Counted from the stretch's first letter, positions 18,491 to 32,692 are shown. The stretch: DNA of 64,000 nt from Thermoanaerobaculia bacterium (GCA_046756565.1 JBHHWO010000002.1:1141-65140); one strand, 5' to 3'. Made by a program: numbers and translations. The notes: generated by a model not told the origin, from the letters alone.

Positions 18491-18674
18491 GTCGGTCTCC
18501 TTTCCGTCTGGGTCTAGCCTGCAAACTAGACCAGGTGCACGACTTTGGCTCCACCCGAAAGGGTGGTCGCAGACTGCTTTGGGCAGCCGGGCCGTCGCGC
18601 ACGGTGGCTGCGGCCGAGCGATTGGCAGCGGTCGACGAGACTTGAAGACAGCGTAGTCACCCGGGCTGAGAGCC

Positions 18675-19067
18675 TCACCCGAGTCCGGCAAGACCTTCGG
18701 CGGCCTCGTGCATTTCTTCCAGCTCGTAGCTGTAAAGCAGAGAGCGAATGGTCAGTCGCGGCGCGAGAGCAACTCCTTCGGCAAACGGCCAAATGTCGAT
18801 CGTTTCCCAAGGGCAGTGGCGCGCACACAACTTGCAGCCGATACAGCGATCCAGATCGACCTCCACTAGTTTCAGGAGGTCGGAAAACTGCGGGCCCGGG
18901 ACAACCTCGATGCAGTCTACCGGACAAAACGCGATACAGACCTCGCAACCACTGCATCCGGTCTGATCCACCACCGCGATCTCGTTGGGGGCCCGAGGCC
19001 GCGGTGGTTTGTCGACCTCGACCCTTTTCTCGTGTGTCTGATGGTCGGTCATGCCGCTGTTCCCCAT
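18675..19067 (-). CDS. 2x[4Fe-4S] ferredoxin-type protein
   Basis: CSGCEVCIAFCP and CIGCKLCARHCP motifs. No signal peptide. Confidence 0.8.
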   Translation of the reverse strand: MGNSGMTDHQTHEKRVEVDKPPRPRAPNEIAVVDQTGCSGCEVCIAFCPVDCIEVVPGPQFSDLLKLVEVDLDRCIGCKLCARHCPWETIDIWPFAEGVALAPRLTIRSLLYSYELEEMHEAAEGLAGLG

Positions 19068-19076
19068 GCCGCCAGG

Positions 19077-21470
19077 CTACGGGATCGTCGGCGAGTCGTC
19101 CCCTGCGGCTGCGGGCCGGTAGGGAAAGCCCTCCATGTCGGCGCCGTGACAGCTCAGATAGCAGCGACGCTGGCGGGTCGACGTGTTGATCCACCATTCA
19201 GGGAGCGCGCGGCCGCCGAAGGGAGTGATGTCCGGCGAGAAGTTGACCAGATGGGTCTTGAAGCCGGCCGGTGGTGAGGTGAAGATCGTGCCGTTGACGT
19301 TGTACTGGGTGTTGTCCGCGGTGCGGTTCGAGTGGACGTTGAAGTGGCAGTTTTTGCACGTCGCCCGCGTGTCGTCGATGCGGTCGACCAGATGGACCTC
19401 GTGGAGGTTGTCGCGGCCATCGATCGTGTCGTAGAAGTTGGTCGACGCCGGTGGGTTGTCGTCGTCCCGACGGGCTTCGACGAGGCGTGCCGGATCATGG
19501 CAGAGGAAGCAGAGCTCGAAGTTGCTCCGGTTCCAGCTCGCTGGGCCTTGTAGATCGGTCCAGTACTCGGCGCGCCGGATGGCGGCGTTCGTCGAACCGT
19601 GAGGACCCTTGGGGGAGGCCGGCGAGTTCGACGCCGGACCGAAAGCGTCGGCAGTGGCCTCGTTGTTGTGACAGTCGGTACAGTCGATGGTGGAGGTCGT
19701 CGACAGCCCGCCCAGTAGCGCGTTGTTCAGGTTGGCCGACTGGTTCTGTCCCTGACCGGCAACAGGATGGAAGGCGCTGTTCGAAGTCTGGAAGTCGAGC
19801 CTCTTGTTGCTGGTTCCCGGCCGCGAGCTGTTGAACGTGTCTCCGTGACACTTGAAGCACAACTCGTACTGGACGAGATCTCGTTCGTTACCCGTGCCGG
19901 GCCCCACGGGATTGCCGGCCAGGTCGATTCCAGTGGCGCCGGCGAGCTTGTTGTCGGGTCGCGCCTTGTGGGGATTGTGGCAGTCGACACACTCGACCGA
20001 GCGTCCGGCGGTCTGCTCGGGGTCCGAGATCGGATGGTGGAAGATATCGGCACCGTTGGTGCCCTTCTGGAACTCGCCACGTATGTCGGTGCCGGCGGGC
20101 GAGCCATCGTGGCAGGTGAAGCACAGGTCCTCTGCATCGGCCGGGTCGCTGCCGTCGGCTGCAATGTCGTAGCGCTCGACCCAGAGCCTGGGGTAGTCCT
20201 GAGCCGGGGTCGCGTCGTCGGGCCAGCCGTGCGGCCAGTGGCAGTTCACGCAGCTACCGCGCTTCTCCGCCGTATGCGCAGGGAAGCTGGAGCCGTACTC
20301 GCCGCCGGGCCACAGCACACCGGTCGCAGCGTCGAAGTGCGAGCCGGCGACACGGTCGGCCAGCGTGTGGCACTCGAAGCAGACTTCGGTGATCGCCGCG
20401 CGCAGAATATAGCCGTCGTCGGTGCCCGAGGTGGCGGGATTGCCGCCCGGGAAGAAATGAGGCGCGTGACAGGTCATACAGCGGACGTTGGCCCCGGCGT
20501 CGAGCGGCAGCTGCAGCGGTGTCTGAAAGGTCGGATCGGCCGGAATGGGTACTCCAACCGGATGCGATCCCTGATCCGACGAGGTCACGTCGCGGACCTC
20601 GTGGCAGGTCGTACACATCTGATTGGTATCGTTTTGGACCCGCTGGTAGTGGCGACCGACACCGGTTCCGGTCCAGCCGGATCCGGCGCCGGTAAAGGGT
20701 GGAGCATTGGGATCGAAGGGCTGCTTGTCCTGCCAGTGCTGGTTGTGGCAGACGGTACACACCACCTTCTCGGCGCTGCGCTGGAAGCGGTTGGCCATGT
20801 CCGCCTCGAAGGCGATGCCGGGGTCCGGTGCCCGGAGGTCGGTGCGCACCCACAGCGTCCAGGTGTCCCCGGGGAGAAAGCTCGGCGACGCCGGCGCGTC
20901 GATGAAATCGAGGGTCAGGCCCGCGTCGAGCGGCACCGCCGCCCCCGAGGTGCCGGAGCCACTGCCGCCTTCCGAATCGGTCCAACTGAATGTCGCGATA
21001 CCCGCGTCACCGCCACCGGGAGGACCGGTGACGGTGATCGTGTAGGTGCGCTCGATGCGGCCGGTGAAAGCTCCGGCCGAGCGAATGAGGCCCGCAGAGA
21101 GGTTGGTGCCGGCGGCCTCGACGTGTCCCGAAGGACCGGAGTCCCACCGATGGGAGGTGCCGCTGAGCCCCGGGAAGGCCTGATCCGTGTCGCTCAGCGG
21201 CCGGTTGGCGGCCTGGCCGGTCACGTTGTGGCACGACTGGCACAGCAGGGGGACCGTCTGCGCCTTGATGATCGAGATGCCGTCGGCGTGGTGCGGCGTG
21301 TGGCAGGCCAGGCATGGCGCGTCGGGGAGCAGCACGTCGGAGTGCGGCGGATCGACGAACTGGGCCAAGGTCTCCGGGGCCGCAGCGGCGAAGAGGATGA
21401 TCGCCAGGACGACGGGCCGAGCACGTCCATTCAGGTTCGCTGTTCTCTTCATCGGTCGCGGTTCGTTCAT
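19077..21470 (-). CDS. Large multihaem cytochrome c (13 CxxCH + 1 CxxxCH)
   Basis: Signal peptide VVLAIILFAAAAPETLAQ. Counted by eye: CLACH, CQSCH, CTVCH, CTTCH, CMTCH, CFECH, CVNCH, CFTCH, CVDCH, CFKCH, CTDCH, CFLCH, CKNCH, plus CYLSCH. Confidence 0.9.
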   Translation of the reverse strand: MNEPRPMKRTANLNGRARPVVLAIILFAAAAPETLAQFVDPPHSDVLLPDAPCLACHTPHHADGISIIKAQTVPLLCQSCHNVTGQAANRPLSDTDQAFPGLSGTSHRWDSGPSGHVEAAGTNLSAGLIRSAGAFTGRIERTYTITVTGPPGGGDAGIATFSWTDSEGGSGSGTSGAAVPLDAGLTLDFIDAPASPSFLPGDTWTLWVRTDLRAPDPGIAFEADMANRFQRSAEKVVCTVCHNQHWQDKQPFDPNAPPFTGAGSGWTGTGVGRHYQRVQNDTNQMCTTCHEVRDVTSSDQGSHPVGVPIPADPTFQTPLQLPLDAGANVRCMTCHAPHFFPGGNPATSGTDDGYILRAAITEVCFECHTLADRVAGSHFDAATGVLWPGGEYGSSFPAHTAEKRGSCVNCHWPHGWPDDATPAQDYPRLWVERYDIAADGSDPADAEDLCFTCHDGSPAGTDIRGEFQKGTNGADIFHHPISDPEQTAGRSVECVDCHNPHKARPDNKLAGATGIDLAGNPVGPGTGNERDLVQYELCFKCHGDTFNSSRPGTSNKRLDFQTSNSAFHPVAGQGQNQSANLNNALLGGLSTTSTIDCTDCHNNEATADAFGPASNSPASPKGPHGSTNAAIRRAEYWTDLQGPASWNRSNFELCFLCHDPARLVEARRDDDNPPASTNFYDTIDGRDNLHEVHLVDRIDDTRATCKNCHFNVHSNRTADNTQYNVNGTIFTSPPAGFKTHLVNFSPDITPFGGRALPEWWINTSTRQRRCYLSCHGADMEGFPYRPAAAGDDSPTIP

Positions 21471-21474
21471 CGGA

Positions 21475-23619
21475 TCAGGGCATCAAGGTGGGGTCGATGA
21501 TCACCGAGAGCTTCGCCCCCTGATGAAAGGAAAGTCCGCCGTCGAGGCGTACCGATACACCGGCCCGCAGAGTCAGATTGCCGGTGCCTTCGACAACAAC
21601 CCCTGGGCCCACCGAGACCAGTTCGCAGGCCGCGAACTCTCGAGCGGTTGCCACGGTCTCGTTGGAGATCTGAAGAACGGCGACGCTCACAAGGCCGTCG
21701 CCATCGTTGCAGTCGTGGGAAAAACAGACACCATCGGCATCGCTGTCAAGCGTGGCGTTGTTGCCCGTACAAGGGTCACAGTCGTCGGGCACGCCGTCGC
21801 CGTCGGCGTCGAAGGTGTCGTTGAATCCAGGACACATGTCGCAGGGGTCGGGCACACCGTCGCCGTCGGCGTCGTTACCCGAGCAGACATCACAGCCGTC
21901 GGGAATGCCGTCACCGTCGATGTCCAACGTATCGTCGAAACCTAGGCAGATGTCGCAGGTGTCGGGTACGCCGTCGCGGTCGGCGTCGAGTGCGTCGTTG
22001 AAACCGGGGCAACGGTCGCAGGCGTCGGGCGCGCCGTCTCCGTCGGCGTCGAAGGCGTCATCGAATCCGGGGCACAGGTCGCAGCCGTCGGGTACGCCAT
22101 CTCCGTCTGTCTCCGCCGTGTCGTTCCATCCGGCGCAGATGTCGCAACCGTCAGGTACGCCATCACCGTCGGTGTCGACCGCGTCGTTCGCTCCGGCGCA
22201 GATGTCGCAGGCATCGGGTAGGCCGTCGGCGTCTGCGTCCAGGGTGTCGTCGAACCCCGGACAGACGTCGACGGCATCCGGCACCCCGTCGTTGTCACCG
22301 TCAGGACTGGGCGCTACGATCACGGCGTCGAAGCCCTCGAGCGCGAAGGCACCCATCAGGCCGGCTATGCGTATGACCCCGCTGCCCGCCGCCGGCAGGG
22401 TGGATGCGAGCTGAGTGCCGTCGAAAGCTACGTGGACGTCGGGTGTCTGGTCGCCATCGGCATCTCCGAGCACCGCGGATCCCGCGATAGGCGCGACACT
22501 ATTGGCGGTGAGGGAGCCGAGGTCGATGAGCGCGAGATCGTAGCCGGGTAGTTCGAGCGTAGCCGACACCTCCGCGTGCACCAGCGGGTCGAAGACCTGC
22601 GGCTCGACCTCGACTTCGAGCTGGACGACGGTCTCCGGGTCGACGTAGCTGTCGAGGCCGTACATCTCGATGCGGGCGGTGGTGTTGGCGGTCGTCACCA
22701 GGCGCCCCGAGGGATCGATCAGAACGTCAGTGGGAGTGGCGAGCTGGCCCGGTCCCACGCCGACGTCGTTCACGTCGCCGATCGTCACTACCGTCGCCCC
22801 CAGGCGGTCGATGACGTGGACCCAACCTTCGAAGGCGTCGGACACGAAGATCCGGCCGAGAGCGTCGGCCCAAATGCCCTGCGGCATGTTGAAGCGGCCG
22901 CTGCCCGAACCTTTTTCCCCCAGGCAGGCGACGAAGGCGCCGGCGCGGTCGAAGATCTGGATCCGGCCGTTCAGCTGGTCGGTGACCAGCACCTCGTCGG
23001 CGACGGTGTCGATGTGGATTCCAGCGGGAAACTGAAACTGCCCGTCGCCCGTGCCGCGCGCGCCGAAACCGAAGCGCTTGACGCCAGCGACGTCGTACAC
23101 CTCGACCCGGTTGGCAATGCTGTCGACCACCCAGACATCGCCGGTCGCCGGGTCGACGGCGGCGTCGCCCGGCAGGCCGAACTCGCCGGCGCCTTGGCCC
23201 AGGTCGAAGAGTGCCTGCCAGTCCGAGGTGTAGGCCGTGACACGGCCGTCGACTCCGTCCCCAACGTAGATTCGGTCGCCGGCGGCCGTTACAGCGACAC
23301 TCACCGGCTGGCCCAGGCCTTCGCCCACGGTCAGGAGCCTGCCGTCGGCGGCGCGCACCGCGACCTTGGCGCCTACTGCATCGGCGATATAGATGCGCCC
23401 GAGAGTGTCGACGGCGAGCCGCGTAGGAGTCTGGAACGAAGCGCGGTAGCCGCGCAACCACTCCACTGTGGGCGCCGGTAGCGCCGAGGTCCCGCCGCTC
23501 GAACAGACCGTCGCCATCGCAACCGTCGCCACCGGTCCGAACATGCCAAGCAGCAAGAGCAGCCAGATCCGTAGCGGCGGCACCGGTCGGCCGACAGCTC
23601 GAGTGTCGCTCTCACTCAT
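21475..23619 (-). CDS. NHL-repeat beta-propeller protein with thrombospondin type-3-like Ca-binding repeats
   Basis: ATG at 23619 (the track gives TTG 23658). Signal/lipobox VAMATVCSS. NHL blades (IYIADAVGAKVAV, VWVVDSIANRVEVYD, VLVTDQLNGRIQIFD, IFVSDAFEGWVHVID). Then 8-9 units of C-x-G-x-D-D-x-x-D-x-DGDGVPDxCD. Confidence 0.85.
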   Translation of the reverse strand: MSESDTRAVGRPVPPLRIWLLLLLGMFGPVATVAMATVCSSGGTSALPAPTVEWLRGYRASFQTPTRLAVDTLGRIYIADAVGAKVAVRAADGRLLTVGEGLGQPVSVAVTAAGDRIYVGDGVDGRVTAYTSDWQALFDLGQGAGEFGLPGDAAVDPATGDVWVVDSIANRVEVYDVAGVKRFGFGARGTGDGQFQFPAGIHIDTVADEVLVTDQLNGRIQIFDRAGAFVACLGEKGSGSGRFNMPQGIWADALGRIFVSDAFEGWVHVIDRLGATVVTIGDVNDVGVGPGQLATPTDVLIDPSGRLVTTANTTARIEMYGLDSYVDPETVVQLEVEVEPQVFDPLVHAEVSATLELPGYDLALIDLGSLTANSVAPIAGSAVLGDADGDQTPDVHVAFDGTQLASTLPAAGSGVIRIAGLMGAFALEGFDAVIVAPSPDGDNDGVPDAVDVCPGFDDTLDADADGLPDACDICAGANDAVDTDGDGVPDGCDICAGWNDTAETDGDGVPDGCDLCPGFDDAFDADGDGAPDACDRCPGFNDALDADRDGVPDTCDICLGFDDTLDIDGDGIPDGCDVCSGNDADGDGVPDPCDMCPGFNDTFDADGDGVPDDCDPCTGNNATLDSDADGVCFSHDCNDGDGLVSVAVLQISNETVATAREFAACELVSVGPGVVVEGTGNLTLRAGVSVRLDGGLSFHQGAKLSVIIDPTLMP
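21694..22305 (-). repeat. In-frame tandem ~63-bp (21-aa) TSP3-like repeats inside the NHL gene
   Basis: Protein residues ~452-655: CPGFDDTLDADADGLPDACDI / CAGANDAVDTDGDGVPDGCDI / CAGWNDTAETDGDGVPDGCDL and so on. The DNA shows the recurring gtcgggcacgccgtc[gc]ccgtcggcgtc. Confidence 0.85.
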
Positions 23620-23654
23620 CTGCAAGCTCCGGAATGAGTGGCAACCGTCACGTA

Positions 23655-26339
23655 TCAAGGCCTCTCAATTCGCTTTTCAAGGCCGAAACGGCACATCCCG
23701 TGCGCGTTCTCTTCGAGAATCTTCCACTCGCTTCCCTCCCGAACGAGCTCGAGCGTCTTGTCGACGGAGTCCGAGCAGAGACTGGAGCGATAGGCCTGGC
23801 AAAACGAGACGCGAACCCGGTCGCGGCTCGATTCGGTGATCGATAACGACTCGATATCGACTTCGATCCAGGCTGGAGCCAACAATCGTTGCCGACGAAG
23901 CCTTTGCCAAGCGTCGCGCTTCGCGCCACTCGCGGGTCGGAACTCGGCCGAATAGGAGGACAGGTAACGGTCGACGTCTCCGGCCGCCCACGCGGCGGCC
24001 CAGCCCTCTACGACCGATCGGATGGCCCTTTCCTCCTGGCTTCGATCCGGTACTGTCGTCTGTTCCCTCTTTCCATCCCGAGGTGCTTCCACTTGCCCGG
24101 AAGTCGACTCGGCAGGTTGCGTTGGCGCCTGCGTCTCCGGCTCGCCTGAACCGGATGGCTCGGCCGGGTTCTGCTCACCCCGGCCCGCTGCGTGCTCGGC
24201 AAGATCGAAAAGACCGGAAGTCTCGGTGATGCCCGGCTCATCCTGCTCCCAGGCGGCTTCCGCTCCGTAGGGATACGGCTCCATGCCGGGCAAGTCCTCC
24301 GGCCAGGGCTCGTACTCTGGAGCTCTCCTGCGGGCGGGTAACGTGCCTGGAAAGAACCGACGTGAAAATCTCAGAGAGCCGGTGACGCCCTCGACCGTTT
24401 GAAAGCCCCGCTCGCGTTGCCAGTGCTCGGCCGATGCGATCAGCTGCACCTTGCCCAGTCTCCATCTGGCGCTGAATCCGAAACGCTCGAATGCCTGGTC
24501 TGCCGCCAGGCTATCGACGACCTCCCGGTGACTGGCATAGGACTCGAGCTTCAGCGATGGCACGGGTTCCCACTGCGCGCTCACTCTGCCCTCCATGACT
24601 TCCGTCTCTCGCACCGGCCTCTTGAATCGAGTATCCATCCAAACGAGATTCGCCCGGATCGTCCACCTGGAACTCGGGATGTAGGTGAGGCCGTCGGCGA
24701 GCCGGAGCGATTCGAATGCGAGGAGACTGGAGTCGCGAGTTCGGAGTTCGTTGAACGAGCTGAGTTTGATCCGTTGTCCGTCCCGGCGGAGTCTGAAGCC
24801 GGCGTACTTGTCCCTACGATCGTCAAGCAGAGAATCCGTTTGGCCGGCCAGAAGGTCGTCGCTGAAGCTCCGGAAGCCGAAGAAGCCCGTAATCCAGGAG
24901 TAGTCGACGGAAACGTCCAACTCGGTGCGGCGCGAGTCGAACCGGCTCTCGTCGGGAACTCGTATTCGATACTCGACCAGAATCGACTGACCGTCGGCGA
25001 TTCTTCCGCCGGGCAGAGGCAAGATCTCGGCGAACTCTCCAACGAAGTGGATCTCGTAGTCGGTTCCCTCCTCGAAGATCGTGCTTCCGAGTTCGTCGGT
25101 TACGACCACCGTTCCGGGAATCACCGCCGGCTGATCGAGCCGCGACGGAACTCCGAATCGAAGCCGCTGTTGCTCTCGGGAGATCAAGAGCTCGCCATCG
25201 CCGTCCAGGCTGTCGCGCCGGTCGTAAGTGCTACCGAGGCGACCGGTGAGCTTGCCCCGTCCGGGCAGCCTCTTTCTGTAGTCGAACTGGAGCCTGGCCT
25301 GGTCTTGACTGCTGCGGCCCGCGTCCGAGGTGAGATCCGATCTGGTGAAGCGAAGGTCGGTGTCGAGGCTCTCCCAGAGGCGGTGGTTAAGCCATGCGCT
25401 GAGCCTCTGAGAGTCGGTGGCTCGACCAGAGAAGGTTTCCTGATTCCTGTATTCGTAGCGCAGGCCGCTTTCGAGGGTGTCCCTGTGGCGCAGGCGGAGG
25501 TCTTCGTCGATCGAGAATGAAGACGAAGTCAGCTCCCCGGACCTGTCGAAGTAGCGTACCGTGGATCGCAGGGTCGCCAGCCGGGGCTCGAGCAGCTCGA
25601 TTGTGTGATTCAGGCTCGCGGTCTGAGTCTGATTGCTGAAGCGGGGTGATAGCTCGTCCTCGACATCCTCGATCTGAAGAAAAAGATAGGCCTCGTTGCG
25701 CCGCCACCGGTTCTCGGCCTGGTAGCTCAACGTCTCCTTTTTCTGGTCGAACGCTCGTATTTGCCGATCGAAATCGGAGATCGACTCGAGAGTGTTGTTC
25801 CGATAGCTCAACCGCGCCGGGAAGAACCTAGGTCCCACCTGAAATGCGAGACCGAGGCTGGAGGTGTCGAGCCTCTGGCTGCCGGCGAATTCGACCGGGG
25901 TTACGGTCTCAGCCTGGTTCGCGAACAGAGTGAATCCGTAGGCCTTGTCGGGCATGAAGGTCGCGTTCAGATCGTAGCCACGAACCTTGCCCTCGCCCGA
26001 TGCTTCCTGGTCGAGTCCGGAGGTGGTACTGCTCCGTAGAAAACCGAGGGTCAGGCCGAAGTTGACGGTCAGGAAGCGGCGGCTGACGAAGATGGCGGTG
26101 TTTCTGAACCCGAATCTCTGCTCGGTCTGGTTGCGCTCCACTAGAGGCCTGCTACCTGCACTCGAGAACAGATTCTGCTCCTGATGGTCGAATCCCAGTT
26201 CCGCGAAGCCCGTCCAGCGCCCAAGCCGGAATCCGCGGACCGTGGCCTGGGCCGGCGCGACGGCGCCAGCCCAGAGCGCGACAGCGAGGACCGCCGCCGT
26301 CACTCTGTGGTCGCCGGCCGCGGATTCAGTTGGCCACAT
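23655..26339 (-). CDS. Large outer-membrane beta-barrel-like protein with C-terminal linker and NTF2/SnoaL-like domain
   Basis: ATG at 26339 gives signal peptide VTAAVLAVALWAGAVAPAQA. About 650 aa of alternating-polarity strands end in GSLRFSRRFF (OM beta-signal-like). Then a ~105-aa P/E/Q-rich linker and ~124 aa ERAIRSVVEGWAAAWAAGDVDRYLSSY...WKILEE (NTF2-like). Confidence 0.65.
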   Translation of the reverse strand: MWPTESAAGDHRVTAAVLAVALWAGAVAPAQATVRGFRLGRWTGFAELGFDHQEQNLFSSAGSRPLVERNQTEQRFGFRNTAIFVSRRFLTVNFGLTLGFLRSSTTSGLDQEASGEGKVRGYDLNATFMPDKAYGFTLFANQAETVTPVEFAGSQRLDTSSLGLAFQVGPRFFPARLSYRNNTLESISDFDRQIRAFDQKKETLSYQAENRWRRNEAYLFLQIEDVEDELSPRFSNQTQTASLNHTIELLEPRLATLRSTVRYFDRSGELTSSSFSIDEDLRLRHRDTLESGLRYEYRNQETFSGRATDSQRLSAWLNHRLWESLDTDLRFTRSDLTSDAGRSSQDQARLQFDYRKRLPGRGKLTGRLGSTYDRRDSLDGDGELLISREQQRLRFGVPSRLDQPAVIPGTVVVTDELGSTIFEEGTDYEIHFVGEFAEILPLPGGRIADGQSILVEYRIRVPDESRFDSRRTELDVSVDYSWITGFFGFRSFSDDLLAGQTDSLLDDRRDKYAGFRLRRDGQRIKLSSFNELRTRDSSLLAFESLRLADGLTYIPSSRWTIRANLVWMDTRFKRPVRETEVMEGRVSAQWEPVPSLKLESYASHREVVDSLAADQAFERFGFSARWRLGKVQLIASAEHWQRERGFQTVEGVTGSLRFSRRFFPGTLPARRRAPEYEPWPEDLPGMEPYPYGAEAAWEQDEPGITETSGLFDLAEHAAGRGEQNPAEPSGSGEPETQAPTQPAESTSGQVEAPRDGKREQTTVPDRSQEERAIRSVVEGWAAAWAAGDVDRYLSSYSAEFRPASGAKRDAWQRLRRQRLLAPAWIEVDIESLSITESSRDRVRVSFCQAYRSSLCSDSVDKTLELVREGSEWKILEENAHGMCRFGLEKRIERP

Positions 26340-28155
26340 GGCAGCGAACACAGGTAGTGAATCCGATTTCCCACGCGATCCGGCCGTTGTGGCAGGTCGC
26401 GCAGAACTCACCCCGCCGCATGGCGGTCATGGTGATCGGGTTGGCTCCGGCTTTCATTTCGAACACACTCGGGTGGCACGAGGCGCACTTGAATCGGATG
26501 CGATGAAACCAGTGAGGAAACGTCGCCGGCGGAGTGTCCTTGCCGGCCAGCAGAAACAGCTCGTCGACCCCCGCTAGCTCGTCAGGACTCAAGCCTTCGA
26601 TGTTGTTCAAGGCAATCTGGGCTTCGGCAGCCAGCTCTGCCTCCGAGAGTTCCCTACGCTCGAAGTGGATGTCACCTTTGACCGCGAACGGTGACGGCTC
26701 CTCCTCGGCGAACGACAGTATGAATGCCGCTAACTGCCAAGCTTGTTCCGGTTGGAGAAACTGACCGAAGCCAGGCATAGGCGTGCCCGGGAAGCCGGTC
26801 ATGACGACTCGGTACATATCCCTGATACCGGAGCCGGACTTCGGCGGCCTCCCAGCCGCGAAGTTGTACGGCAAGATCGGATCGCCCCACTCGTCTTTCA
26901 GCGTTTCAGCCGAGGCGCCATCGGCCCGGCCCGTGTCGCCGTGGCACGCTTGGCAGCCGGCCTGTCTGTAGAAGGCTCGGCCCTGCTCGACCAATTCCGC
27001 CGTGACCTCGGGGGTCTCTGGGATGGTGATCGGTTCGTCCGGCTCTTCATTGGCGAACCGTGGAGAGAAGGACTTGACGAAGTGCGTCAATGCCCAGCGA
27101 TCCTCGGTTGACAGGGCGATCCAGCTGGGCATCGACGAGCCCGGGACACCACGAGTGATCGTCCGAAAGATGTCGTAGTCCGTCGGCAGGGAAGCTCCGA
27201 TTGTCGAGCGGAACTTGTACTTGCCGGCCGTGAAGTCGCGCGGCTTGGGATCCACCCACGGCGCCATCCGGCCCTGGCCGTCACCGGCGTCTCCATGACA
27301 GAGAGCGCAGTAGCGCTGGTATGCCTGCTGGCCCCGTTTGATCAGCTCGTCAGAAGCAACCAGTGGGCTGTCCAAAGCGCGAGCCAGCTCGGCATCGACA
27401 GTCTCGTCGCTCGCCGGCATGAGACTCGAGTGACAACGCGCACAGCTCAACTCCGGATCGTAGGACACTCGCCCGTGGCACTTGCCGCAGCCCTCCCCGG
27501 CGAGAATCCGGTCCATCGGCTTGCGCAGCGTCGCGGCGCCGGGATGGCAGCTCGAGCAAGTCAGCCAGAGCGTATGCGAGGCATGTGGGAAGTCCACCGT
27601 GAAGAACGGATCTGACTCGGGCACCAGCTCGAGGTCGAGATCGAGAACCGGACGATCGGGGAATCCGGCCGCCACCGTGGCAAACGTCTCCAGCCGAAAA
27701 GGCGGCTCGAAGGGAGTGGCCTGTGGTTCGGGAAGGGCTCGCGGTTCGATCAATCCATCTTTGATTGCCTGAACCCAGTCGACACCGCCGGCGTAGTCGG
27801 TGGGAAGCTGGGTCAGAGCCTCCTGCCACGTCGTGACATTCTCGAGCGGCGCCTTGACGGCGAGCTCGAGTCCCTCGATTACGGCCTGATCGAGCGGTAC
27901 GACAGGCGGCGAGTTTCGAGCTCGCCGAGCCCGCGCGGAATCGTCGCCGGTCGCGGGCGTCGGAGGCGGCGGGACGTTGGGACCAGGCTCGAGGAGGGAC
28001 TCTTCGACCCTCTCTTCGGTTGGCTCGGGGAGCCCATCGAAGAAAACCGAAAGCACTTTATGCCTGCTCGTCGTGGAGCAGGCATAGACCGCGGTCAGGC
28101 AAACGAGCGACGCCAAAACCGGTGCAGTTCGGAGTCGCCCTGGTGGTGCTCTCAC
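26326..28155 (-). CDS. Octahaem lipoprotein cytochrome c: c7-type trihaem + two class-I-like monohaem domains + c7-type trihaem
   Basis: Lipobox-like LTAVYAC. CSSCH, CGKCH, CARCH (first c7-like, FPHASHTLWLTCSSCHP). CALCHGD and CQACHGD (class I-like with downstream Met). CASCH, CATCH, CVRCH (second c7-like, FPHWFHRIRFKCASCHP). Confidence 0.85.
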   Translation of the reverse strand: MRAPPGRLRTAPVLASLVCLTAVYACSTTSRHKVLSVFFDGLPEPTEERVEESLLEPGPNVPPPPTPATGDDSARARRARNSPPVVPLDQAVIEGLELAVKAPLENVTTWQEALTQLPTDYAGGVDWVQAIKDGLIEPRALPEPQATPFEPPFRLETFATVAAGFPDRPVLDLDLELVPESDPFFTVDFPHASHTLWLTCSSCHPGAATLRKPMDRILAGEGCGKCHGRVSYDPELSCARCHSSLMPASDETVDAELARALDSPLVASDELIKRGQQAYQRYCALCHGDAGDGQGRMAPWVDPKPRDFTAGKYKFRSTIGASLPTDYDIFRTITRGVPGSSMPSWIALSTEDRWALTHFVKSFSPRFANEEPDEPITIPETPEVTAELVEQGRAFYRQAGCQACHGDTGRADGASAETLKDEWGDPILPYNFAAGRPPKSGSGIRDMYRVVMTGFPGTPMPGFGQFLQPEQAWQLAAFILSFAEEEPSPFAVKGDIHFERRELSEAELAAEAQIALNNIEGLSPDELAGVDELFLLAGKDTPPATFPHWFHRIRFKCASCHPSVFEMKAGANPITMTAMRRGEFCATCHNGRIAWEIGFTTCVRCHVAN

Positions 28156-28191: not shown

Positions 28192-28899
28192 CTATTCTCC
28201 AGTGAACTCGAAGCTGACTTGGGTTTCTCCGCTGTCGGCCACGGTGATCTCCCGCGTCTGCTCACCCAACTTCTCGTGCCAAAGCGAGAGCTGGTGATTC
28301 CCGGCGGGAACATCGGCCAAGGTAAAGCTTCCTGTTTCGTCGGTGACCGCCGTATAGCGACTATCGGTCACCAGAATCCACGCGGTCATCCATCCGTGCA
28401 CGTCGCACTTGACTTTGATCACCTCGGACTCGTCGAAGGTCAACTGCAGAGTCTGCACGAAGCCCGGCTGGGCCAGGTTCATCGGCGGGTTCTCGTCTGA
28501 GTAGGTGTGCACGTTGTGAAGGATGCCGTCGCTGTTGATCACCGCCATCTCCTCGCCGGGACGCGCGATCACCACCCGAGGCTCAAACGTGCAGCCATTC
28601 TGGTCGAGCTTCGGCTGCTCCGAGCTCTCGGTTGCACCCCGGGCGCTCGAGACCTGGACCACCGCCCACTGCAGCCCCTGGTCTTCACTGACGACGAGCT
28701 CGGGATCGACCTGCTCGGTGCCACAGACCGAAGTGTCCTGTGCCACCGCAACAGGTTCTGCGGCGGGCACGGTCCCGTTGAACTTGACCGTGCCTACAAC
28801 GGTACCAGCCGACAGGGTTGTCGACAGCGTGGACGTCAGAATCAGGATGGCCAGGACGGCGAGAGCTGATCTTGTCGAGTGGATGGGTCTTACTTGCAT
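28192..28899 (-). CDS. Secreted cupredoxin-like protein with C-terminal CarboxypepD_reg-like beta-sandwich
   Basis: Signal peptide. Type-1 Cu-like ligand pattern INSDGILHNVH ... KCDVHGWM (H...C-x2-H-x2-M, amicyanin-like spacing). C-terminal TDETGSFTLADVPAGNHQLSLWHEKLG. RBS AAGGAG 8 nt upstream. Confidence 0.7.
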   Translation of the reverse strand: MQVRPIHSTRSALAVLAILILTSTLSTTLSAGTVVGTVKFNGTVPAAEPVAVAQDTSVCGTEQVDPELVVSEDQGLQWAVVQVSSARGATESSEQPKLDQNGCTFEPRVVIARPGEEMAVINSDGILHNVHTYSDENPPMNLAQPGFVQTLQLTFDESEVIKVKCDVHGWMTAWILVTDSRYTAVTDETGSFTLADVPAGNHQLSLWHEKLGEQTREITVADSGETQVSFEFTGE

Positions 28900-29012: not shown

Positions 29013-29822
29013 CTAGCCGCGGTCGTGGCACTTCTGGCAGATGTACGACGCTCCAGGACCGGTTCCCGAGCCACCGAGGGTTCCGCGCAGCAGCGGCTGG
29101 TCGTGAACCAGGCCACGTTCGTTGTGGACACCGTGGCACGAGGTGCATTCGATTCCTGTGCTGCCCGCCACGGCACCGGCGGAGATGTTGCCGGCGTTGT
29201 CGTTGAAGAGGCGGATACCGAGAGAGGTCGGGTCCGGATTGAAGTCGGCTGTGAACGTATTGGCGCCGGTAGTCACGCCGTTGTAAGTGTTGGTCGTCGT
29301 CTGCTGGAAGGGATAGGGGAACGCGACCGGGTGGTTGCCGCTCATATTGCCGGTGGTCGGATCGGCGATGTTGAAGACGTCGACGTCGTGTGTGGTTGGA
29401 TCCAAGGCCGCGGCCCCTGTCCATGCCTGCTTGTTGAACCAGGCGATGTCACCGATCGCCACCGAACCGTCGTGACAGCTCAGACAGAGCTTGGTCGGGC
29501 CCTTCCAGGTGGTGTCGATAGTGGGGTAGGGAGTGCCGCCGGCCGTCACCGCACCCGCGTCCCAGGAGTAGGTGTTAGACGAAAGTGTGTGGTTCCACAA
29601 GAGGCTCTGCTGCTGAGCCCTGTGGGGTGTATGGCAGAAAGTGCAGCCGCCGGTGGTCGCGGTCGGGTTGCCCGTGTTGCCCGCTGCGATTCCGGAGAAA
29701 TCGTGCGGGCTGTTCGTGAAGCCGGATCCTGGTGTGTAGCTCTGCGCCCAGGCCGCTCCCGAGAAGAGCAGCAGCACGGTGACGAGCGTCGTGAGTGCCA
29801 ACCTGGAGTTTGTTCCTCTCAT
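29013..29822 (-). CDS. Secreted tetrahaem cytochrome c (paired-CxxCH type)
   Basis: Internal ATG at 29822 after GGGAGGA. Signal peptide LALTTLVTVLLLFSGAAWAQ. SPHDFS...CTFCHTPH, CLSCHDG, CTSCHGVH, CQKCHDRG. Confidence 0.85.
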   Translation of the reverse strand: MRGTNSRLALTTLVTVLLLFSGAAWAQSYTPGSGFTNSPHDFSGIAAGNTGNPTATTGGCTFCHTPHRAQQQSLLWNHTLSSNTYSWDAGAVTAGGTPYPTIDTTWKGPTKLCLSCHDGSVAIGDIAWFNKQAWTGAAALDPTTHDVDVFNIADPTTGNMSGNHPVAFPYPFQQTTTNTYNGVTTGANTFTADFNPDPTSLGIRLFNDNAGNISAGAVAGSTGIECTSCHGVHNERGLVHDQPLLRGTLGGSGTGPGASYICQKCHDRG

Positions 29823-29859
29823 TCCTGTCCTCCCATAGAAAGGTTGTAGAGATCGATTG

Positions 29860-31029
29860 CTATCGAGATTGAGACGCTCCCTCGTCGTTCGACGGAGAGT
29901 CCTTCTGGTCCGAAGAGATATAGCTGTCTTCAGCGGTCGTATTGACGAGCTCGTAGCGAGCGACGCGGTAGTTGAGGTAGTCGGCGATGTAGATGCGGTT
30001 CTGCCGGTCGATCGCAATTCCGGTCGGGTTCTTCAGAAGTCCGGGGTGAACTCCGCGCCCCCCGAAGAAAAGCAGCACCTGTCCCTTTTGATTGAAGATC
30101 TGAACGTTTGACCATCCGGAATCGACGACATATACGTTGCCGAAGCCGTCGATAGCGACCCCCTTGGGCTTGTCGAACATGCCGAATGCCGTTCCCCGCT
30201 CACCGAAGTACTTGAGGTAGTTGCCGTCCACGTCGAAGACGTCGACTCGGGACTTCAGGGTGCTGGTGACATAGAGGTTGCCGTCGGAATCTACGGCGAC
30301 GTAAGTCGGGAAGAACAGGCACCCGTCACAAATCCCCTTCTTTCCCACAGTGCGCAGCAGTCGGCCCTCGAGATCGAATACCTTTACCGAGTGATCCTCG
30401 GATGCCTTGGTCGCCGGATCCGCGACGTAGAGGAGGCCGCGCGTGCGATCGAGCTCGATGTCGGCGGGCCGCACTAGCGAAGGGTGCTTGATGATCCGGA
30501 TGGGTTCGTGCTGGCGGTCGAGCACCACGATCCGTCGATTGCCCTGTTCGACGACATAGAGATTCTCTTGCTCGTCCAGGGCCAGTCCAAAAGGACGGCT
30601 GAACGGCCGTGTGTCGCCGATCAAGGAGACCCGCTTGGTATCGAAGTCGAAAAGGAAGACCACGGCTTGACCGAAGTCGGAGACATAGAACCGCTTGCCG
30701 TCGTCAGACACCGCGACATCCATGGGCTGGTAAACGTGGGATTTCGGCGGCGTGGTTCCGGCGAAAAACTCCATGAACAGCTCACGCCGGGTGGGCTTGC
30801 GCCCGAGATGCTTCTCGTCGGCATACGACTGCAGAAACCTGATCCTGGGCTCCTGGGGAGGCTCGGGCCAAACCAGCTCGATCAACTCCGGTTCAACCAC
30901 CTTGGCCTTTCTGTTCTTGTTCCTCTTCTTGCCCTTCGCATCCGCCGTTTCGACACCTGCAATCAAAGTCGCGACGGCAACCAGCAAGACGAGCCAACGC
31001 CGGCCGAGATAGGTAGATTCCTTGATCAT
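29860..31029 (-). CDS. NHL-repeat six-bladed beta-propeller protein, secreted
   Basis: Signal peptide LVLLVAVATLIAGVETADA. Blades FYVSDFGQAVVFLFD, LYVVEQGNRRIVVLD, LYVADPATKASEDHSVKVFD, LYVTSTLKSRVDVFD, VYVVDSGWSNVQIFN, IYIADYLNYRVARYE. Confidence 0.85.
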   Translation of the reverse strand: MIKESTYLGRRWLVLLVAVATLIAGVETADAKGKKRNKNRKAKVVEPELIELVWPEPPQEPRIRFLQSYADEKHLGRKPTRRELFMEFFAGTTPPKSHVYQPMDVAVSDDGKRFYVSDFGQAVVFLFDFDTKRVSLIGDTRPFSRPFGLALDEQENLYVVEQGNRRIVVLDRQHEPIRIIKHPSLVRPADIELDRTRGLLYVADPATKASEDHSVKVFDLEGRLLRTVGKKGICDGCLFFPTYVAVDSDGNLYVTSTLKSRVDVFDVDGNYLKYFGERGTAFGMFDKPKGVAIDGFGNVYVVDSGWSNVQIFNQKGQVLLFFGGRGVHPGLLKNPTGIAIDRQNRIYIADYLNYRVARYELVNTTAEDSYISSDQKDSPSNDEGASQSR

Positions 31030-31079: not shown

Positions 31080-31094
31080 GCAAAGCGAGTGCCA
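31080..31094 (-). promoter_or_regulatory. Sigma-54 (-24/-12) promoter TGGCAC-TCGCT-TTGC(T)
   Basis: Plus strand reads gcaaagcgagtgcca. Reverse complement is TGGCACTCGCTTTGC with exact spacing, about 50 nt upstream of the NHL gene start (31029). Confidence 0.65.

Positions 31095-31237: not shown

Positions 31238-32684
<1,447 letters not shown>

Positions 32685-32692
<8 letters not shown>

What the first reader, a model, noticed from the sequence alone, without database searches (positions are those of the whole stretch)
26326..28155. Mosaic octahaem lipoprotein: c7-like trihaem / class-I / class-I / c7-like trihaem
- Two FPH-x-FH...C-x2-CH...C-x2-CH...C-x2-CH modules (residues ~190-250 and ~545-605) bracket two CxxCHGD monohaem units that have the spacing and downstream Met typical of class I cytochromes c.
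- Low-potential c7-type and high-potential class-I-type haems fused in one lipoprotein, encoded between a cupredoxin gene and an OM barrel gene, look like a built-in potential ladder.
- I do not recognise this domain order from characterised proteins.
Basis: partly seen in the sequence, partly recalled or inferred. Interest (0 to 1): 0.6.

Follow-up and report, generated by a model that had tools for sequence, protein, structure and literature searches.

The report
Eight-haem lipoprotein of Uet-type conduit
The eight-haem protein is real: it is the periplasmic cytochrome of an already named but untested outer-membrane electron conduit ("Uet" type) that has acquired a two-haem high-potential insert and a blue-copper partner, which hints that this bacterium pulls electrons in from outside the cell.

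Summary
Observation confirmed. ORF 26326-28155 (-) encodes a 609-aa lipoprotein with eight CxxCH. HMMs and PDB matches confirm the order: c7-type trihaem, dihaem class I, c7-type trihaem. All eight haems have an invariant sixth-ligand candidate (4 His, 4 Met), so it looks like a pure electron carrier.

It is not an orphan. The surrounding genes form a Uet-type porin-cytochrome cluster, known from Ca. Tenderia, Gallionella and Leptothrix by prediction only:
- sigma54 regulator pair and promoter
- NHL propeller
- OmcE-like tetrahaem
- blue-copper protein
- the octahaem
- 28-30-strand barrel
- NHL propeller
- 13+1-haem cytochrome

In other phyla the same position holds separate c7N and c7C genes, or a hexahaem c7N-c7C fusion. 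The octahaem is that hexahaem with a Kustc0457-like dihaem inserted in the linker.

The insert co-occurs with an adjacent cupredoxin gene in 10 of 13 contexts, against none adjacent in about 20 clusters without the insert. A paralogous cupredoxin sits between bc-type and aa3 oxidase genes in the same genome.

I read the protein as the periplasmic link from the barrel to a high-potential exit, with electrons probably flowing inward. Direction is not proven, and the genome has no RuBisCO. I classify it as a new variant of a known kind, of moderate interest.

The parts
26326..28155 (-). Octahaem lipoprotein gene (609 aa), whole ORF including the stop codon
   Evidence: ORF list. Eight CxxCH. Pfam and NCBIfam hits. 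72-sequence alignment A1. AF2 model with pLDDT 78.8 and pTM 0.75.
28078..28155 (-). Signal peptide and lipobox (residues 1-26, VYA-C26)
   Evidence: GTG start with GGAAGG 7 nt upstream. Lipobox conserved in about 50 of 72 homologues.
27601..28077 (-). Anchor-proximal region (residues 27-185). It holds the conserved VLSxFFDG(V/L)P helix, a roughly 40-aa Pro-rich disordered tether, and the GGVDW...P motif region.
   Evidence: Consensus and invariant columns W127, A130, P138. AF2 pLDDT is below 50 for residues 47-86. The same region is present in the separate 'Nlip-c7N' lipoproteins of other phyla.
27421..27600 (-). c7N trihaem module (residues 186-245). FPHASH is followed by CxxCH at 200, 223 and 238. 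Distal ligand candidates are H191, H194 and M214.
   Evidence: PF14522 and TIGR04257 stretches. Invariant columns.
26695..27372 (-). Inserted dihaem class-I unit (residues ~262-487). CxxCH at 283 and 401. Distal Met are M342 and M460.
   Evidence: 6H5L_B (Kustc0457) at E 2.2e-50 over its full length. Foldseek TM 0.92, rmsd 1.2 A, 40% identity. pLDDT above 90. Invariant columns.
26329..26694 (-). c7C trihaem module (residues 488-609). It starts at KGDIHFER and contains FPHWFHRIRF, with CxxCH at 557, 585 and 602. Distal ligand candidates are H548, H551 and M576.
   Evidence: GSU1996 domains at E 1.4e-38. M576 aligns with the axial Met209 and Met287 of GSU1996. The separate c7C proteins of other phyla start their mature chain with GDIxFxR.
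28192..28899 (-). Soluble blue-copper protein (cupredoxin inserted in a CarboxypepD_reg-like sandwich), 235 aa. Probable redox partner.
   Evidence: Pfam Copper-bind and CarboxypepD_reg. H128, C165, H168 and M171 invariant in 11 sequences. Adjacent to the octahaem gene in 10 of 13 contexts.
23655..26339 (-). Outer-membrane barrel (about 28-30 strands, residues 37-662), then a disordered linker and an NTF2-like Cds6_C domain. The start overlaps the octahaem stop by 14 nt.
   Evidence: AF2 on 14 orthologues, barrel pLDDT 80-97. Foldseek finds large OM barrels, with the best TM to MtrB 6R2Q_B. PF24125. An orthologous barrel follows the c7 gene in nearly all loci.
29013..29825 (-). Tetrahaem cytochrome (about 270 aa), OmcE-like and UetA-like
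   Evidence: Four CxxCH. 7TFS_A at E 1.6e-14 over residues 32-254. Orthologues sit at the same position in other loci.
29860..31029 (-). NHL six-bladed propeller (389 aa), first gene of the operon
   Evidence: Pfam NHL at E 9.8e-24. Orthologues score 1e-100 to 1e-130 in the other clusters.
31080..31094 (-). Sigma-54 -24/-12 element TGGCACTCGCTTTGC, about 50 nt upstream of the NHL gene
   Evidence: Exact match. Similar elements lie upstream of the first cluster gene in L004, L007, L018 and L023.
31238..34481 (-). Histidine kinase (32685-34481) and sigma-54-dependent response regulator (31238-32788)
   Evidence: Pfam. The same pair precedes the cluster in L001, L003, L004, L007, L008, L016, L026, L039 and L056.
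34603..35376 (-). Second cupredoxin/CarboxypepD_reg paralogue, upstream of the kinase
   Evidence: 36% identity to the first. Alignment A3. Pfam.
21475..23658 (-). Second NHL propeller, fused to TSP3-like repeats (727 aa)
   Evidence: Pfam NHL at E 2.2e-17 and a weak TSP_3 hit. An NHL gene follows the barrel in the other clusters.
19077..21470 (-). 13 CxxCH + 1 CxxxCH cytochrome (797 aa), related to the undecahaem (UetJ-position) proteins of other clusters
   Evidence: Haem count. Pfam Paired_CXXCH_1 and MtrC/MtrF II-IV. phmmer gives 3e-38 and 5e-36 to the 10- and 11-haem proteins of L020 and L012, and 7e-128 to a 13-haem protein of L034.

Best explanation
**What it is**
- The protein is a non-catalytic electron-transfer lipoprotein with eight six-coordinate c-type haems.
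- It is tethered by a lipid anchor and a flexible tether of about 40 residues on the periplasmic side.

**Its place in the cluster**
- It is the periplasmic cytochrome of a Uet-type porin-cytochrome conduit. The conduit comprises:
  - a 28-30-strand outer-membrane barrel encoded immediately downstream
  - two NHL propellers
  - an OmcE-like tetrahaem
  - a 13+1-haem cytochrome
- All are expressed from a sigma-54 promoter under a dedicated kinase/activator pair.

**How it arose**
- It is the hexahaem c7N-c7C lipoprotein of such clusters with a Kustc0457-type dihaem class-I unit inserted into the inter-module linker.
- In many Proteobacteria c7N and c7C are still two separate genes.

**Proposed working (inferred)**
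- The two c7-type modules each have two bis-His haems and one His-Met haem. They exchange electrons with the haem proteins at or in the barrel.
- The inserted His-Met dihaem is the high-potential port. It hands electrons to the co-encoded soluble blue-copper protein.
- The copper protein then feeds the aerobic chain (aa3-type oxidase or bc-type complex).
- Net flow is therefore most likely inward: uptake of electrons from extracellular Fe(II), reduced minerals or similar donors. Energy would be conserved by O2 respiration in a heterotroph.

**Shown versus inferred**
- Shown: domain composition, ligand conservation, gene fusion and insertion history, cluster conservation, cupredoxin co-occurrence.
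- Inferred: periplasmic location, the cupredoxin as partner, haem potentials, direction of flow.

**Confidence**
- The stated confidence is for the whole statement.
- About 0.8 applies to 'periplasmic cytochrome of a Uet-type conduit'.
- About 0.5-0.55 applies to inward flow.
For: **Composition and ligands**
- Domain composition rests.
- Each of the eight CxxCH has an invariant distal candidate in 72 homologues: H191, H194, M214, M342, M460, H548, H551 and M576.
- M576 aligns with the NMR-proven axial Met209 and Met287 of GSU1996 (alignment; PMC10138318).

**Cluster conservation**
- The order NHL, tetrahaem, c7 gene(s), barrel, NHL, 10-13-haem cytochrome recurs widely. It is seen in Acidobacteriota, Methylomirabilis, Nitrospinota, Acidiferrobacterales, Sulfurifustaceae, other Gamma- and Betaproteobacteria, Woeseiaceae, Gemmatimonadota and Schekmanbacteria.
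- The component list equals that published for uetA-J: tetrahaem, 28-strand barrel, three c7 trihaems, cupredoxin, two NHL proteins and an undecahaem (bioRxiv 10.1101/2022.05.06.490989; PMC10734462).

**Fusion and insertion history**
- Separate c7C proteins have their own signal peptide, and their mature chain starts with GDIxFxR. That equals residues 493-500 here.
- Hexahaems join c7N and c7C by a linker of about 15 aa, exactly where the dihaem sits.
- In the tree of c7N+c7C, 36 of 41 octahaems form one cluster.

**Barrel**
- AF2 predicts about 28-30 strands at pLDDT 80-97. The best TM among PDB hits is to MtrB.

**High-potential exit**
- A cupredoxin with an invariant type-1 Cu site is adjacent in 10 of 13 octahaem contexts. 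It is not adjacent in any of about 20 clusters without the dihaem.
- A paralogous cupredoxin lipoprotein lies between Rieske/cyt b/8-haem c genes and haem-A synthesis/aa3 oxidase genes on contig C23.
- The genome has three haem-copper oxidases.
- The nearest relatives of the dihaem unit are fused to NxrC-like EB_dh, or to CcoO of cbb3 oxidase. Kustc0457 itself serves a nitrite reductase. All are high-potential settings.

**Host lineages and regulation**
- The published hosts of Uet-type clusters are cathode-, Fe- and Mn-oxidising lineages.
- There is a perfect sigma-54 element upstream, and similar elements recur in four other clusters.
Against: - No potentials, expression data or localisation data exist.
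- The AF2 models carry no haems and no coordinates were available to me. Haem-haem distances and the path through the protein are untested.
- The genome lacks a RuBisCO large subunit, so the autotrophic life style of known Uet hosts does not apply.
- His-Met haems in GSU1996-type domains are not necessarily high potential. I recall domain C at about -105 mV apparent.
- The OmcE-like tetrahaem and the porin-cytochrome design are best known from a metal reducer.
- Flieder et al. proposed metal reduction for cytochrome/barrel clusters of marine Thermoanaerobaculia. I could not check whether those are the same cluster.
- Three octahaem contexts lack an adjacent cupredoxin (L008, L104, L105).
- Two contexts have octahaem plus cupredoxin without barrel or NHL genes (L005, L006). 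The pair can therefore work without an outer-membrane conduit.
- Tenderia Uet protein sequences could not be fetched. 'Uet-type' rests on composition, synteny with undecahaem clusters and the literature description.
Confidence: 0.55

Rival explanations
1. Same conduit, opposite direction. The octahaem carries respiratory electrons outward from the quinol/bc level to the barrel and the extracellular cytochromes. The acceptors would be extracellular Fe(III) or Mn(IV) oxides, or other acceptors.
For: - The porin-cytochrome layout, with an octahaem on the periplasmic side, resembles Geobacter OmaB-OmbB-OmcB and MtrCAB (my own knowledge).
- The barrel's best TM among PDB hits is to MtrB.
- The tetrahaem is homologous to the OmcE filament subunit of an Fe(III) reducer.
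- Flieder et al. propose metal reduction for cytochrome/barrel clusters in Thermoanaerobaculia and Thermoanaerobaculum aquaticum.
- The genome has no RuBisCO, so it is a heterotroph that needs electron sinks.
- In L001 the cluster is followed by Rieske/cyt b genes.
Against: - Four His-Met haems, a blue-copper partner, and relatives of the dihaem unit in oxidase, NXR-like and nitrite-reductase settings point to the high-potential end of a chain. From there, reduction of Fe(III) oxides would be uphill. Mn(IV) remains possible.
- Known hosts of the cluster type are mostly aerobic or denitrifying lithotroph lineages.
- The c7 lipoprotein is absent from 199 of 201 sampled genomes of the class. It is therefore unlikely to be the cluster shared by Thermoanaerobaculia described by Flieder et al.
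Confidence: 0.25
2. The protein is a purely periplasmic electron hub or capacitor. Together with its cupredoxin, the octahaem distributes or stores electrons between periplasmic and inner-membrane redox enzymes (bc-type complex, oxidases, NXR-like enzymes). The neighbourhood of the barrel would be secondary.
For: - Octahaem plus cupredoxin occur without barrel or NHL genes in L005 and L006. There they sit next to cytochrome c'-like, cyt bd-like/cyt c and EB_dh-cytochrome genes.
- That subgroup lacks the lipobox and the FFDGVP motif.
- GSU1996-type c7 polymers are discussed as periplasmic capacitors (PMC10138318).
Against: - In 11 of 13 contexts the barrel gene follows directly, often overlapping the stop codon, as it does here by 14 nt.
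- The c7C gene-to-barrel adjacency is conserved across phyla.
- The whole operon shares one sigma-54 promoter.
Confidence: 0.1
3. The protein is a catalytic multihaem enzyme or enzyme subunit, for example for nitrogen-oxide or sulfur chemistry, by analogy with Kustc0457 in the HAO-like nitrite reductase complex.
For: The closest solved relative of the central unit is the dihaem subunit of the Kustc0458/7 nitrite-reducing complex.
Against: - Kustc0457 itself is only the electron-transfer subunit.
- All eight haems here have invariant sixth-ligand candidates, so no open coordination site is expected.
- No HAO-like or other catalytic gene lies in the cluster.
Confidence: 0.03

Closest known systems
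Uet (undecahaem electron transfer) cluster uetABCDEFGHIJ of Ca. Tenderia electrophaga, also reported in Gallionella and Leptothrix; specifically the periplasmic c7-type trihaems UetD/E/G and the cupredoxin UetF
   Same: - The parts list matches: tetrahaem, very large barrel (28 strands predicted for UetC, 28-30 here), c7-type TIGR04257 trihaem modules, an unusually large cupredoxin, two NHL propellers and a long multihaem cytochrome.
- The same conserved gene order is found here and in proteobacterial clusters with undecahaems.
   Different: - Here the c7 modules are one polypeptide with an inserted dihaem class-I unit.
- There is no PPIase gene.
- The terminal cytochrome has 13+1 haems.
- The gene order differs from that published for Tenderia.
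- The host is a RuBisCO-less member of the Acidobacteriota, judged from its nearest named homologues.
- Uet itself has never been tested experimentally.
- Direct sequence comparison with the Tenderia proteins was not possible.
GSU1996 family of c7-type domain polymers of Geobacter sulfurreducens (PDB 3OV0, 3OUE, 1RWJ)
   Same: - Both trihaem modules match TIGR04257 and PF14522.
- Each has HxxH plus three CxxCH, and a conserved Met that aligns with the axial Met209 and Met287.
- Each module therefore has two bis-His haems and one His-Met haem.
   Different: - GSU1996 is a soluble chain of four like domains.
- Here two distinct module types, c7N and c7C (each with its own orthologues across phyla), are separated by a class-I dihaem and tethered by a lipid anchor.
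Kustc0457, dihaem cytochrome c subunit of the Kuenenia stuttgartiensis HAO-like nitrite reductase complex (PDB 6H5L chain B)
   Same: - Residues 270-486 match it over its full length at E 2.2e-50, TM 0.92, rmsd 1.2 A and 40% identity.
- Both have two CxxCH and both Met ligands.
- In the complex it extends a bis-His multihaem chain by two six-coordinate haems. That is what the insert would do here.
   Different: - Here the unit is not a free subunit but an insert inside another cytochrome.
- There is no HAO partner in the cluster.
Periplasmic multihaem components of porin-cytochrome conduits: OmaB/OmaC (octahaem) of Geobacter Pcc and MtrA of MtrCAB
   Same: - A multihaem cytochrome is encoded next to a large barrel and an outer cytochrome.
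- The barrel model is most like MtrB among PDB hits.
   Different: - No detectable sequence relationship was found.
- Those proteins are all bis-His and low potential, and are not lipoproteins (my own knowledge).
- This protein has four His-Met haems and a copper-protein partner.
Acidithiobacillus ferrooxidans Cyc2, rusticyanin, Cyc1 (dihaem c4), aa3 chain
   Same: The logic is the same: an outer-membrane haem protein, a cupredoxin and a dihaem class-I cytochrome in front of an aa3 oxidase (my own knowledge; compare).
   Different: - The proteins are unrelated in sequence.
- That system is acidophilic.
- It has no c7 modules, propellers or a separate large barrel.

Membership tests
c(7)-type cytochrome trihaem domain (TIGR04257 / PF14522) | HMM score above the curated cut-off | tested here: met
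   TIGR04257 scores 94.6 bits against a cut-off of 40, in two stretches. PF14522 scores 82.7 bits against 24.8, in two stretches.
c(7)-type cytochrome trihaem domain (TIGR04257 / PF14522) | Three CxxCH in about 60-70 aa, preceded by HxxH that supplies two distal His; a third distal ligand (Met in the GSU1996 type) | tested here: met
   N-terminal module: H191, H194, CxxCH at 200, 223 and 238, M214. C-terminal module: H548, H551, CxxCH at 557, 585 and 602, M576. All are invariant in 72 sequences. M576 aligns to axial Met287.
Kustc0457-like dihaem class-I cytochrome c | Full-length sequence and fold match to 6H5L_B | tested here: met
   E 2.2e-50 over residues 6-222 of 226. Foldseek TMt 0.92, rmsd 1.2 A.
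Kustc0457-like dihaem class-I cytochrome c | Two CxxCH, each with a distal Met in a PxMP-type loop | tested here: met
   C283/H287 with M342, and C401/H405 with M460. All are invariant.
Kustc0457-like dihaem class-I cytochrome c | Free subunit paired with an HAO-like octahaem enzyme | tested here: not met
   The unit is internal to a 609-aa protein. No HAO-like gene lies in the cluster.
Uet-type porin-cytochrome cluster | Very large outer-membrane barrel (UetC, 28 strands predicted) | tested here: met
   AF2 predicts about 28-30 long strands over residues 37-662 at pLDDT 80-97. Foldseek finds OM barrels, including MtrB.
Uet-type porin-cytochrome cluster | Periplasmic c7-type trihaem cytochromes (UetD/E/G) | tested here: met
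   c7N and c7C modules are present, fused here. Orthologous separate genes occupy the same position in proteobacterial clusters.
Uet-type porin-cytochrome cluster | Tetrahaem (UetA), two NHL propellers (UetH/I), cupredoxin (UetF) | tested here: met
   Tetrahaem with four CxxCH, OmcE-like. NHL genes at 29860-31029 and 21475-23658. Cupredoxin with an invariant Cu site.
Uet-type porin-cytochrome cluster | Undecahaem UetJ | tested here: inconclusive
   The protein in this position has 13 CxxCH plus 1 CxxxCH. It is homologous to the 10- and 11-haem proteins of L020 and L012 at 3e-38 and 5e-36.
Uet-type porin-cytochrome cluster | PPIase UetB and downstream ccsAB/nrfG | tested here: not met
   No PPIase or System II genes were found among the cluster ORFs or their flanks.
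Uet-type porin-cytochrome cluster | Direct sequence homology to the Ca. Tenderia electrophaga Uet proteins | not testable with these tools
   The Tenderia sequences could not be fetched. The assignment rests on the published description and on synteny with undecahaem clusters of Gamma- and Betaproteobacteria.
Bacterial lipoprotein | Sec signal with a lipobox Cys | tested here: met
   The N-terminus reads MRAPPGRLRTAPVLASLVCLTAVYA-C26. The Cys is conserved in about 50 of 72 homologues. No signal-peptide predictor was available.

The most novel reading that the evidence does not exclude
The dihaem insert and its blue-copper partner form a dedicated high-potential exit. This exit turns an OmcE/Uet-type outer-membrane conduit into an O2-linked pathway for extracellular electron uptake. 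The carrier organisms are RuBisCO-less Acidobacteriota that acquired the cluster horizontally. They would then be unrecognised lithoheterotrophic oxidisers of Fe(II), Mn(II) or reduced minerals. In this reading the two c7 modules work as converging inputs into the central dihaem, a funnel rather than a linear wire.
Probability: 0.25. Interest if true: 0.7.

Novelty: new variant of a known kind. Interest (0 to 1): 0.45.

Why it matters
Uet-type clusters are among the most widespread predicted routes for moving electrons across the outer membrane. No component has been tested, and the direction of flow is only assumed.

This octahaem variant offers a handle on that question.
- It physically couples the conduit's c7 modules to a class-I dihaem, and genetically to a type-1 copper protein.
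- One soluble, expressible pair (octahaem plus cupredoxin) could therefore show by redox titration and electron-transfer kinetics which way the conduit is poised.

It also documents how multihaem wires evolve by gene fusion and domain insertion: split genes, then a hexahaem, then an octahaem, with 6-haem and 18-haem c7N expansions elsewhere.

Finally, it extends this conduit type to a few Acidobacteriota, a phylum rarely considered in metal oxidation. There it is rare and probably horizontally acquired.

Tried and rejected
**Tools or data that were unavailable**
- AF2 coordinates are not exposed. I could not measure haem-site distances or test whether the eight sites form one chain. Only confidence, secondary structure and Foldseek results were usable.
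Two checks were therefore impossible:
  - direct Uet homology
  - whether the Flieder et al. cluster is the same one

**Searches with limited or negative results**
It gave the split and hexahaem contexts but undercounts octahaems.
- A PDB sequence search with the 797-aa cytochrome found nothing at E <= 0.1. The earlier agents' idea of an OmcE-like module in UetJ-type proteins is not confirmed here.
- RuBisCO is absent, so I rejected the autotrophic electro-lithotroph picture of Tenderia for this organism.

**Readings rejected or weakened**
- Catalytic enzyme reading: rejected because all haems have invariant sixth ligands.
- 'Potential ladder' as stated: rejected because the predicted order is not monotonic and no potentials are known.
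- Single-origin test for the insert: the tree needs at least two gains or losses. P0087 nests in the Gemmatimonadota hexahaem clade.
- The count of sigma-54 motifs in the window is not above chance on its own: 2 found against 2.9 expected at <= 1 mismatch. Only the position and the recurrence in other clusters carry weight.

Full report
**1. The observation**

The minus-strand ORF 26326..28155 encodes 609 aa. It has eight CxxCH motifs at residues 200, 223, 238, 283, 401, 557, 585 and 602.
- Pfam finds two Cytochrome_C7 stretches (E 1.6e-23) and two class-I stretches (Cytochrome_CBB3 3.5e-18, Cytochrom_C 2e-15).
- NCBIfam finds TIGR04257 twice, at 94.6 bits against a cut-off of 40.
- The GTG start has a GGAAGG 7 nt upstream.
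- The N-terminus, MRAPPGRLRTAPVLASLVCLTAVYA-C, is a lipoprotein signal. Its Cys, followed by a conserved (K/R)xKVLSxFFDGVP motif, recurs in most homologues.
- The public gene call (P0001, 576 aa) starts at V34 without a signal peptide and is probably too short.

**2. Anatomy**

I aligned 72 full-length homologues (38-72% identity, all with eight CxxCH). Exactly eight further invariant ligand candidates appear: H191, H194, M214, M342, M460, H548, H551 and M576.
- M576 aligns with Met209 and Met287 of GSU1996 (alignment). NMR shows these to be the axial Met of domains C and D (PMC10138318).
- Each trihaem module is therefore of the GSU1996 type, with two bis-His haems and one His-Met haem. It is not a classical all-bis-His c7.
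- Residues 270-486 are not two independent monohaem units. They match the whole 226-aa dihaem cytochrome 6H5L_B at E 2.2e-50.
- The AF2 model has pLDDT 78.8 and pTM 0.75, with the dihaem core above 90. It superposes on 6H5L_B, the Kustc0457 subunit of the Kuenenia HAO-like nitrite reductase, at TM 0.92 and rmsd 1.2 A (role of Kustc0457).
- With eight proximal His and eight conserved distal ligands, no open coordination site is expected. The protein is an electron carrier, not an enzyme.
- Residues 47-86 are Pro-rich and disordered in the model, which suggests a flexible tether behind the lipid anchor.

**3. The neighbourhood**

All genes from 35376 down to 19077 are on the minus strand:

| Coordinates | Gene |
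|---|---|
| 34603-35376 | cupredoxin paralogue |
| 32685-34481 | histidine kinase |
| 31238-32788 | sigma-54 response regulator |
| 31080-31094 | perfect -24/-12 element |
| 29860-31029 | NHL propeller |
| 29013-29825 | tetrahaem |
| 28192-28899 | cupredoxin + CarboxypepD_reg |
| 26326-28155 | the octahaem |
| 23655-26339 | barrel |
| 21475-23658 | NHL + TSP3 repeats |
| 19077-21470 | 13 CxxCH + 1 CxxxCH cytochrome |

These assignments rest.
- The barrel was modelled from 14 orthologues. It has about 28-30 long strands at pLDDT 80-97, followed by a disordered linker and an NTF2-like domain.
- Among PDB hits its best TM-score is to MtrB.
- The tetrahaem matches 7TFS_A over its full length at E 1.6e-14. 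I recall 7TFS as the OmcE filament of Geobacter.
- The cupredoxin has an invariant His-Cys-His-Met type-1 copper site in 11 sequences.

**4. Relatives and the origin of the mosaic**

Contexts of 13 distinct octahaem homologues were examined.
- The barrel gene follows directly in 11 of them.
- The NHL, tetrahaem and kinase/regulator genes are present in most.

The genome-contig scan was analysed with HMMs built here. The same cluster exists across many lineages: Methylomirabilis, Nitrospinota, Acidiferrobacterales, Sulfurifustaceae, other Gamma- and Betaproteobacteria, Woeseiaceae, Gemmatimonadota and Schekmanbacteria. Its order is NHL, tetrahaem, c7 gene(s), barrel, NHL, then a 10-13-haem cytochrome. 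The c7 part takes several forms:
- **Split genes.** An 'Nlip-c7N' lipoprotein of about 205-220 aa carries the same FFDGVP and GGVDW motifs. A c7C protein of about 110-135 aa has its own signal peptide and a mature N-terminus GDIxFxR.
- **Expanded c7N.** Some lipoproteins carry two or even six c7N modules (6 and 18 haems).
- **Hexahaem.** Nlip-c7N and c7C are joined by a linker of about 15 aa, in Gemmatimonadota, Schekmanbacteria and Binatia.
- **Octahaem.** This is the hexahaem with the dihaem unit inserted exactly in that linker.

A tree of the c7N+c7C parts puts 36 of 41 octahaems in one cluster. It needs at least two gains or losses, because P0087 lies inside the Gemmatimonadota hexahaem clade.

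The nearest non-fused relatives of the insert (44-51% identity) are dihaem domains of EB_dh (NxrC-like) fusions and similar proteins.

The family is small and patchy:
- about 80 clusters at 90% identity
- about 10 representatives at 50% identity among 1.84 billion
- present in 2 of 201 sampled genomes of the class and 2 of 401 of the phylum
- absent from the same-genus genome and the three same-family genomes sampled

This suggests horizontal acquisition.

**5. Comparison with what is known**

The parts list equals that of the uet cluster of Ca. Tenderia electrophaga (bioRxiv 10.1101/2022.05.06.490989):

| Uet protein | Description |
|---|---|
| UetA | tetrahaem |
| UetC | 28-strand barrel |
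| UetD/E/G | c7-type trihaems best matching GSU1996 |
| UetF | oversized cupredoxin |
| UetH/I | NHL proteins |
| UetJ | undecahaem |

The cluster is also reported in Gallionella (PMC10734462) and Leptothrix (PMC13386937). It is always a predicted, untested porin-cytochrome complex for electron uptake or iron oxidation. A literature search found no description of the fused octahaem or of Uet-type clusters in Acidobacteriota.

Earlier agents of this scan reached the Uet/OmcE reading for similar clusters in other genomes. I had reached the Uet reading independently, and I tested their OmcE lead here.

Differences from the Tenderia cluster:
- the c7 modules are fused, with the dihaem inserted
- there are no PPIase or ccs genes
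- the terminal cytochrome has 13+1 haems
- the gene order differs from that published for Tenderia

Direct comparison with the Tenderia sequences was not possible.

**6. Mechanism**

*Shown:*
- It is a six-coordinate octahaem carrier, lipid-anchored and translationally coupled to a very large barrel (14-nt overlap).
- It sits in a sigma-54 operon. Similar sigma-54 elements lie upstream of the first gene in L004, L007, L018 and L023.

*Inferred:*
- The c7 modules exchange electrons with the haem proteins at or in the barrel.
- The number of c7N modules varies (1, 2 or 6) in other lineages. This fits a periplasmic 'cable' of adjustable length.
- The dihaem insert is probably the interface to the cupredoxin. 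A cupredoxin gene is adjacent in 10 of 13 octahaem contexts.
- No cupredoxin gene is adjacent in about 20 clusters that lack the dihaem. Two Gemmatimonadota clusters have one next to the regulator instead.

*Evidence bearing on direction:*
- On contig C23 of the same genome, a paralogous cupredoxin lipoprotein lies between two gene sets. On one side are Rieske, cyt b and a 976-aa 8-haem cytochrome c. On the other are haem-A synthesis and aa3 oxidase genes.
- The genome has three haem-copper oxidases.
- The dihaem's relatives serve oxidases (CcoO fusions, NF011054), NXR-like enzymes and a nitrite reductase.
- All this places the insert and the cupredoxin at the high-potential end, and makes inward flow towards O2 the thermodynamically simpler reading.

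*Evidence against inward flow:*
- There is no RuBisCO.
- The tetrahaem is OmcE-like.
- The Geobacter and Shewanella systems are precedents for outward flow.
- Flieder et al. proposed metal reduction in Thermoanaerobaculia.

*My estimates:*
- about 0.8 that this is the periplasmic cytochrome of a Uet-type conduit
- about 0.5-0.55 that flow is inward

**7. Verdict**

It is a lineage-restricted variant of the periplasmic c7 cytochrome of a known, untested conduit type. It arose by fusion plus insertion of a Kustc0457-like dihaem, and it is paired with a blue-copper protein. I classify it as a new variant of a known kind, of moderate interest.

It is useful because the octahaem-cupredoxin pair is a tractable biochemical test of which way Uet-type conduits are poised.

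Noticed in passing
window 29013-29825 (-): The small tetrahaem cytochrome of the cluster matches PDB 7TFS_A over its full length at E 1.6e-14. I recall 7TFS as the OmcE nanowire subunit of Geobacter. The cluster may therefore build, or dock to, an OmcE-type filament.
   Followed up: partly
window 23655-26339 (-): The barrel carries a small beta-rich insertion of about 70 aa (residues ~393-461, conserved VVVTD...EG.DY...PLP motif). It also has a C-terminal NTF2-like Cds6_C domain after a 100-aa disordered linker. The orthologous barrels in the other loci are about 640-735 aa and seem to lack that tail.
   Followed up: partly
own genome contig C23:12126-27589: This contig holds a respiratory supercluster. 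In order: Rieske, split cytochrome b, a 976-aa membrane-anchored cytochrome c with 8 CxxCH, a cupredoxin/CarboxypepD_reg lipoprotein paralogue, haem A synthase, haem O synthase, COX1, COX3 and COX2. This copper-protein family may be the complex III to complex IV carrier here.
   Followed up: partly
own genome: window 28192-28899 and 34603-35376; C226, C23, C115, C196: There are six paralogues of the cupredoxin/CarboxypepD_reg protein. Several lie next to a histidine kinase / sigma-54 regulator pair: in the window, on C115 and on C196. The same kinase-regulator-cupredoxin arrangement occurs in Gemmatimonadota loci L039 and L056. Some copies may serve signalling rather than bulk electron transfer.
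   Followed up: no
own genome contig C113:5379-13266: A second, partial cytochrome/NHL cluster: a paralogue of the 797-aa cytochrome (39% identity), NHL propellers and a tetrahaem-like protein. No c7 lipoprotein or barrel hit was found there.
   Followed up: no
L001:13849-19154: In one acidobacterial relative the cluster is followed directly by Rieske, cytochrome b, a cytochrome c and an FAD/FeS NAD(P)-type oxidoreductase (Fer4_20 + Pyr_redox_2). This resembles the Rieske/cyt b complexes with an NAD(P) module discussed for anammox bacteria, and could be a branch for uphill electron flow.
   Followed up: no
L012:9929-12721: A gammaproteobacterial cluster has a 930-aa lipoprotein with 18 CxxCH, made of six c7N modules in tandem, in the position of the octahaem. 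L011, L014, L020 and L024 have two c7N modules. The length of this periplasmic cytochrome is evidently adjustable.
   Followed up: partly
L005 and L006 (contexts of P0050 and P0076): A subgroup of octahaems lacks the FFDGVP motif and, in the P0060-P0077 group, the lipobox. It occurs with the cupredoxin but without barrel or NHL genes. Its neighbours are cytochrome c'-like, cyt bd-like/cyt c and EB_dh-cytochrome genes.
   Followed up: partly
window 6133-6147 (+): A second perfect TGGCAC-N5-TTGC sigma-54-type element lies elsewhere in the window. I did not examine what lies downstream of it.
   Followed up: no
window 18008-19197 (-): Two ORFs of about 225 aa lie downstream of the 797-aa cytochrome and have no Pfam match. 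They are followed by an FG-GAP/ASPIC protein at 16329-18011. Whether they belong to the operon is unknown.
   Followed up: no
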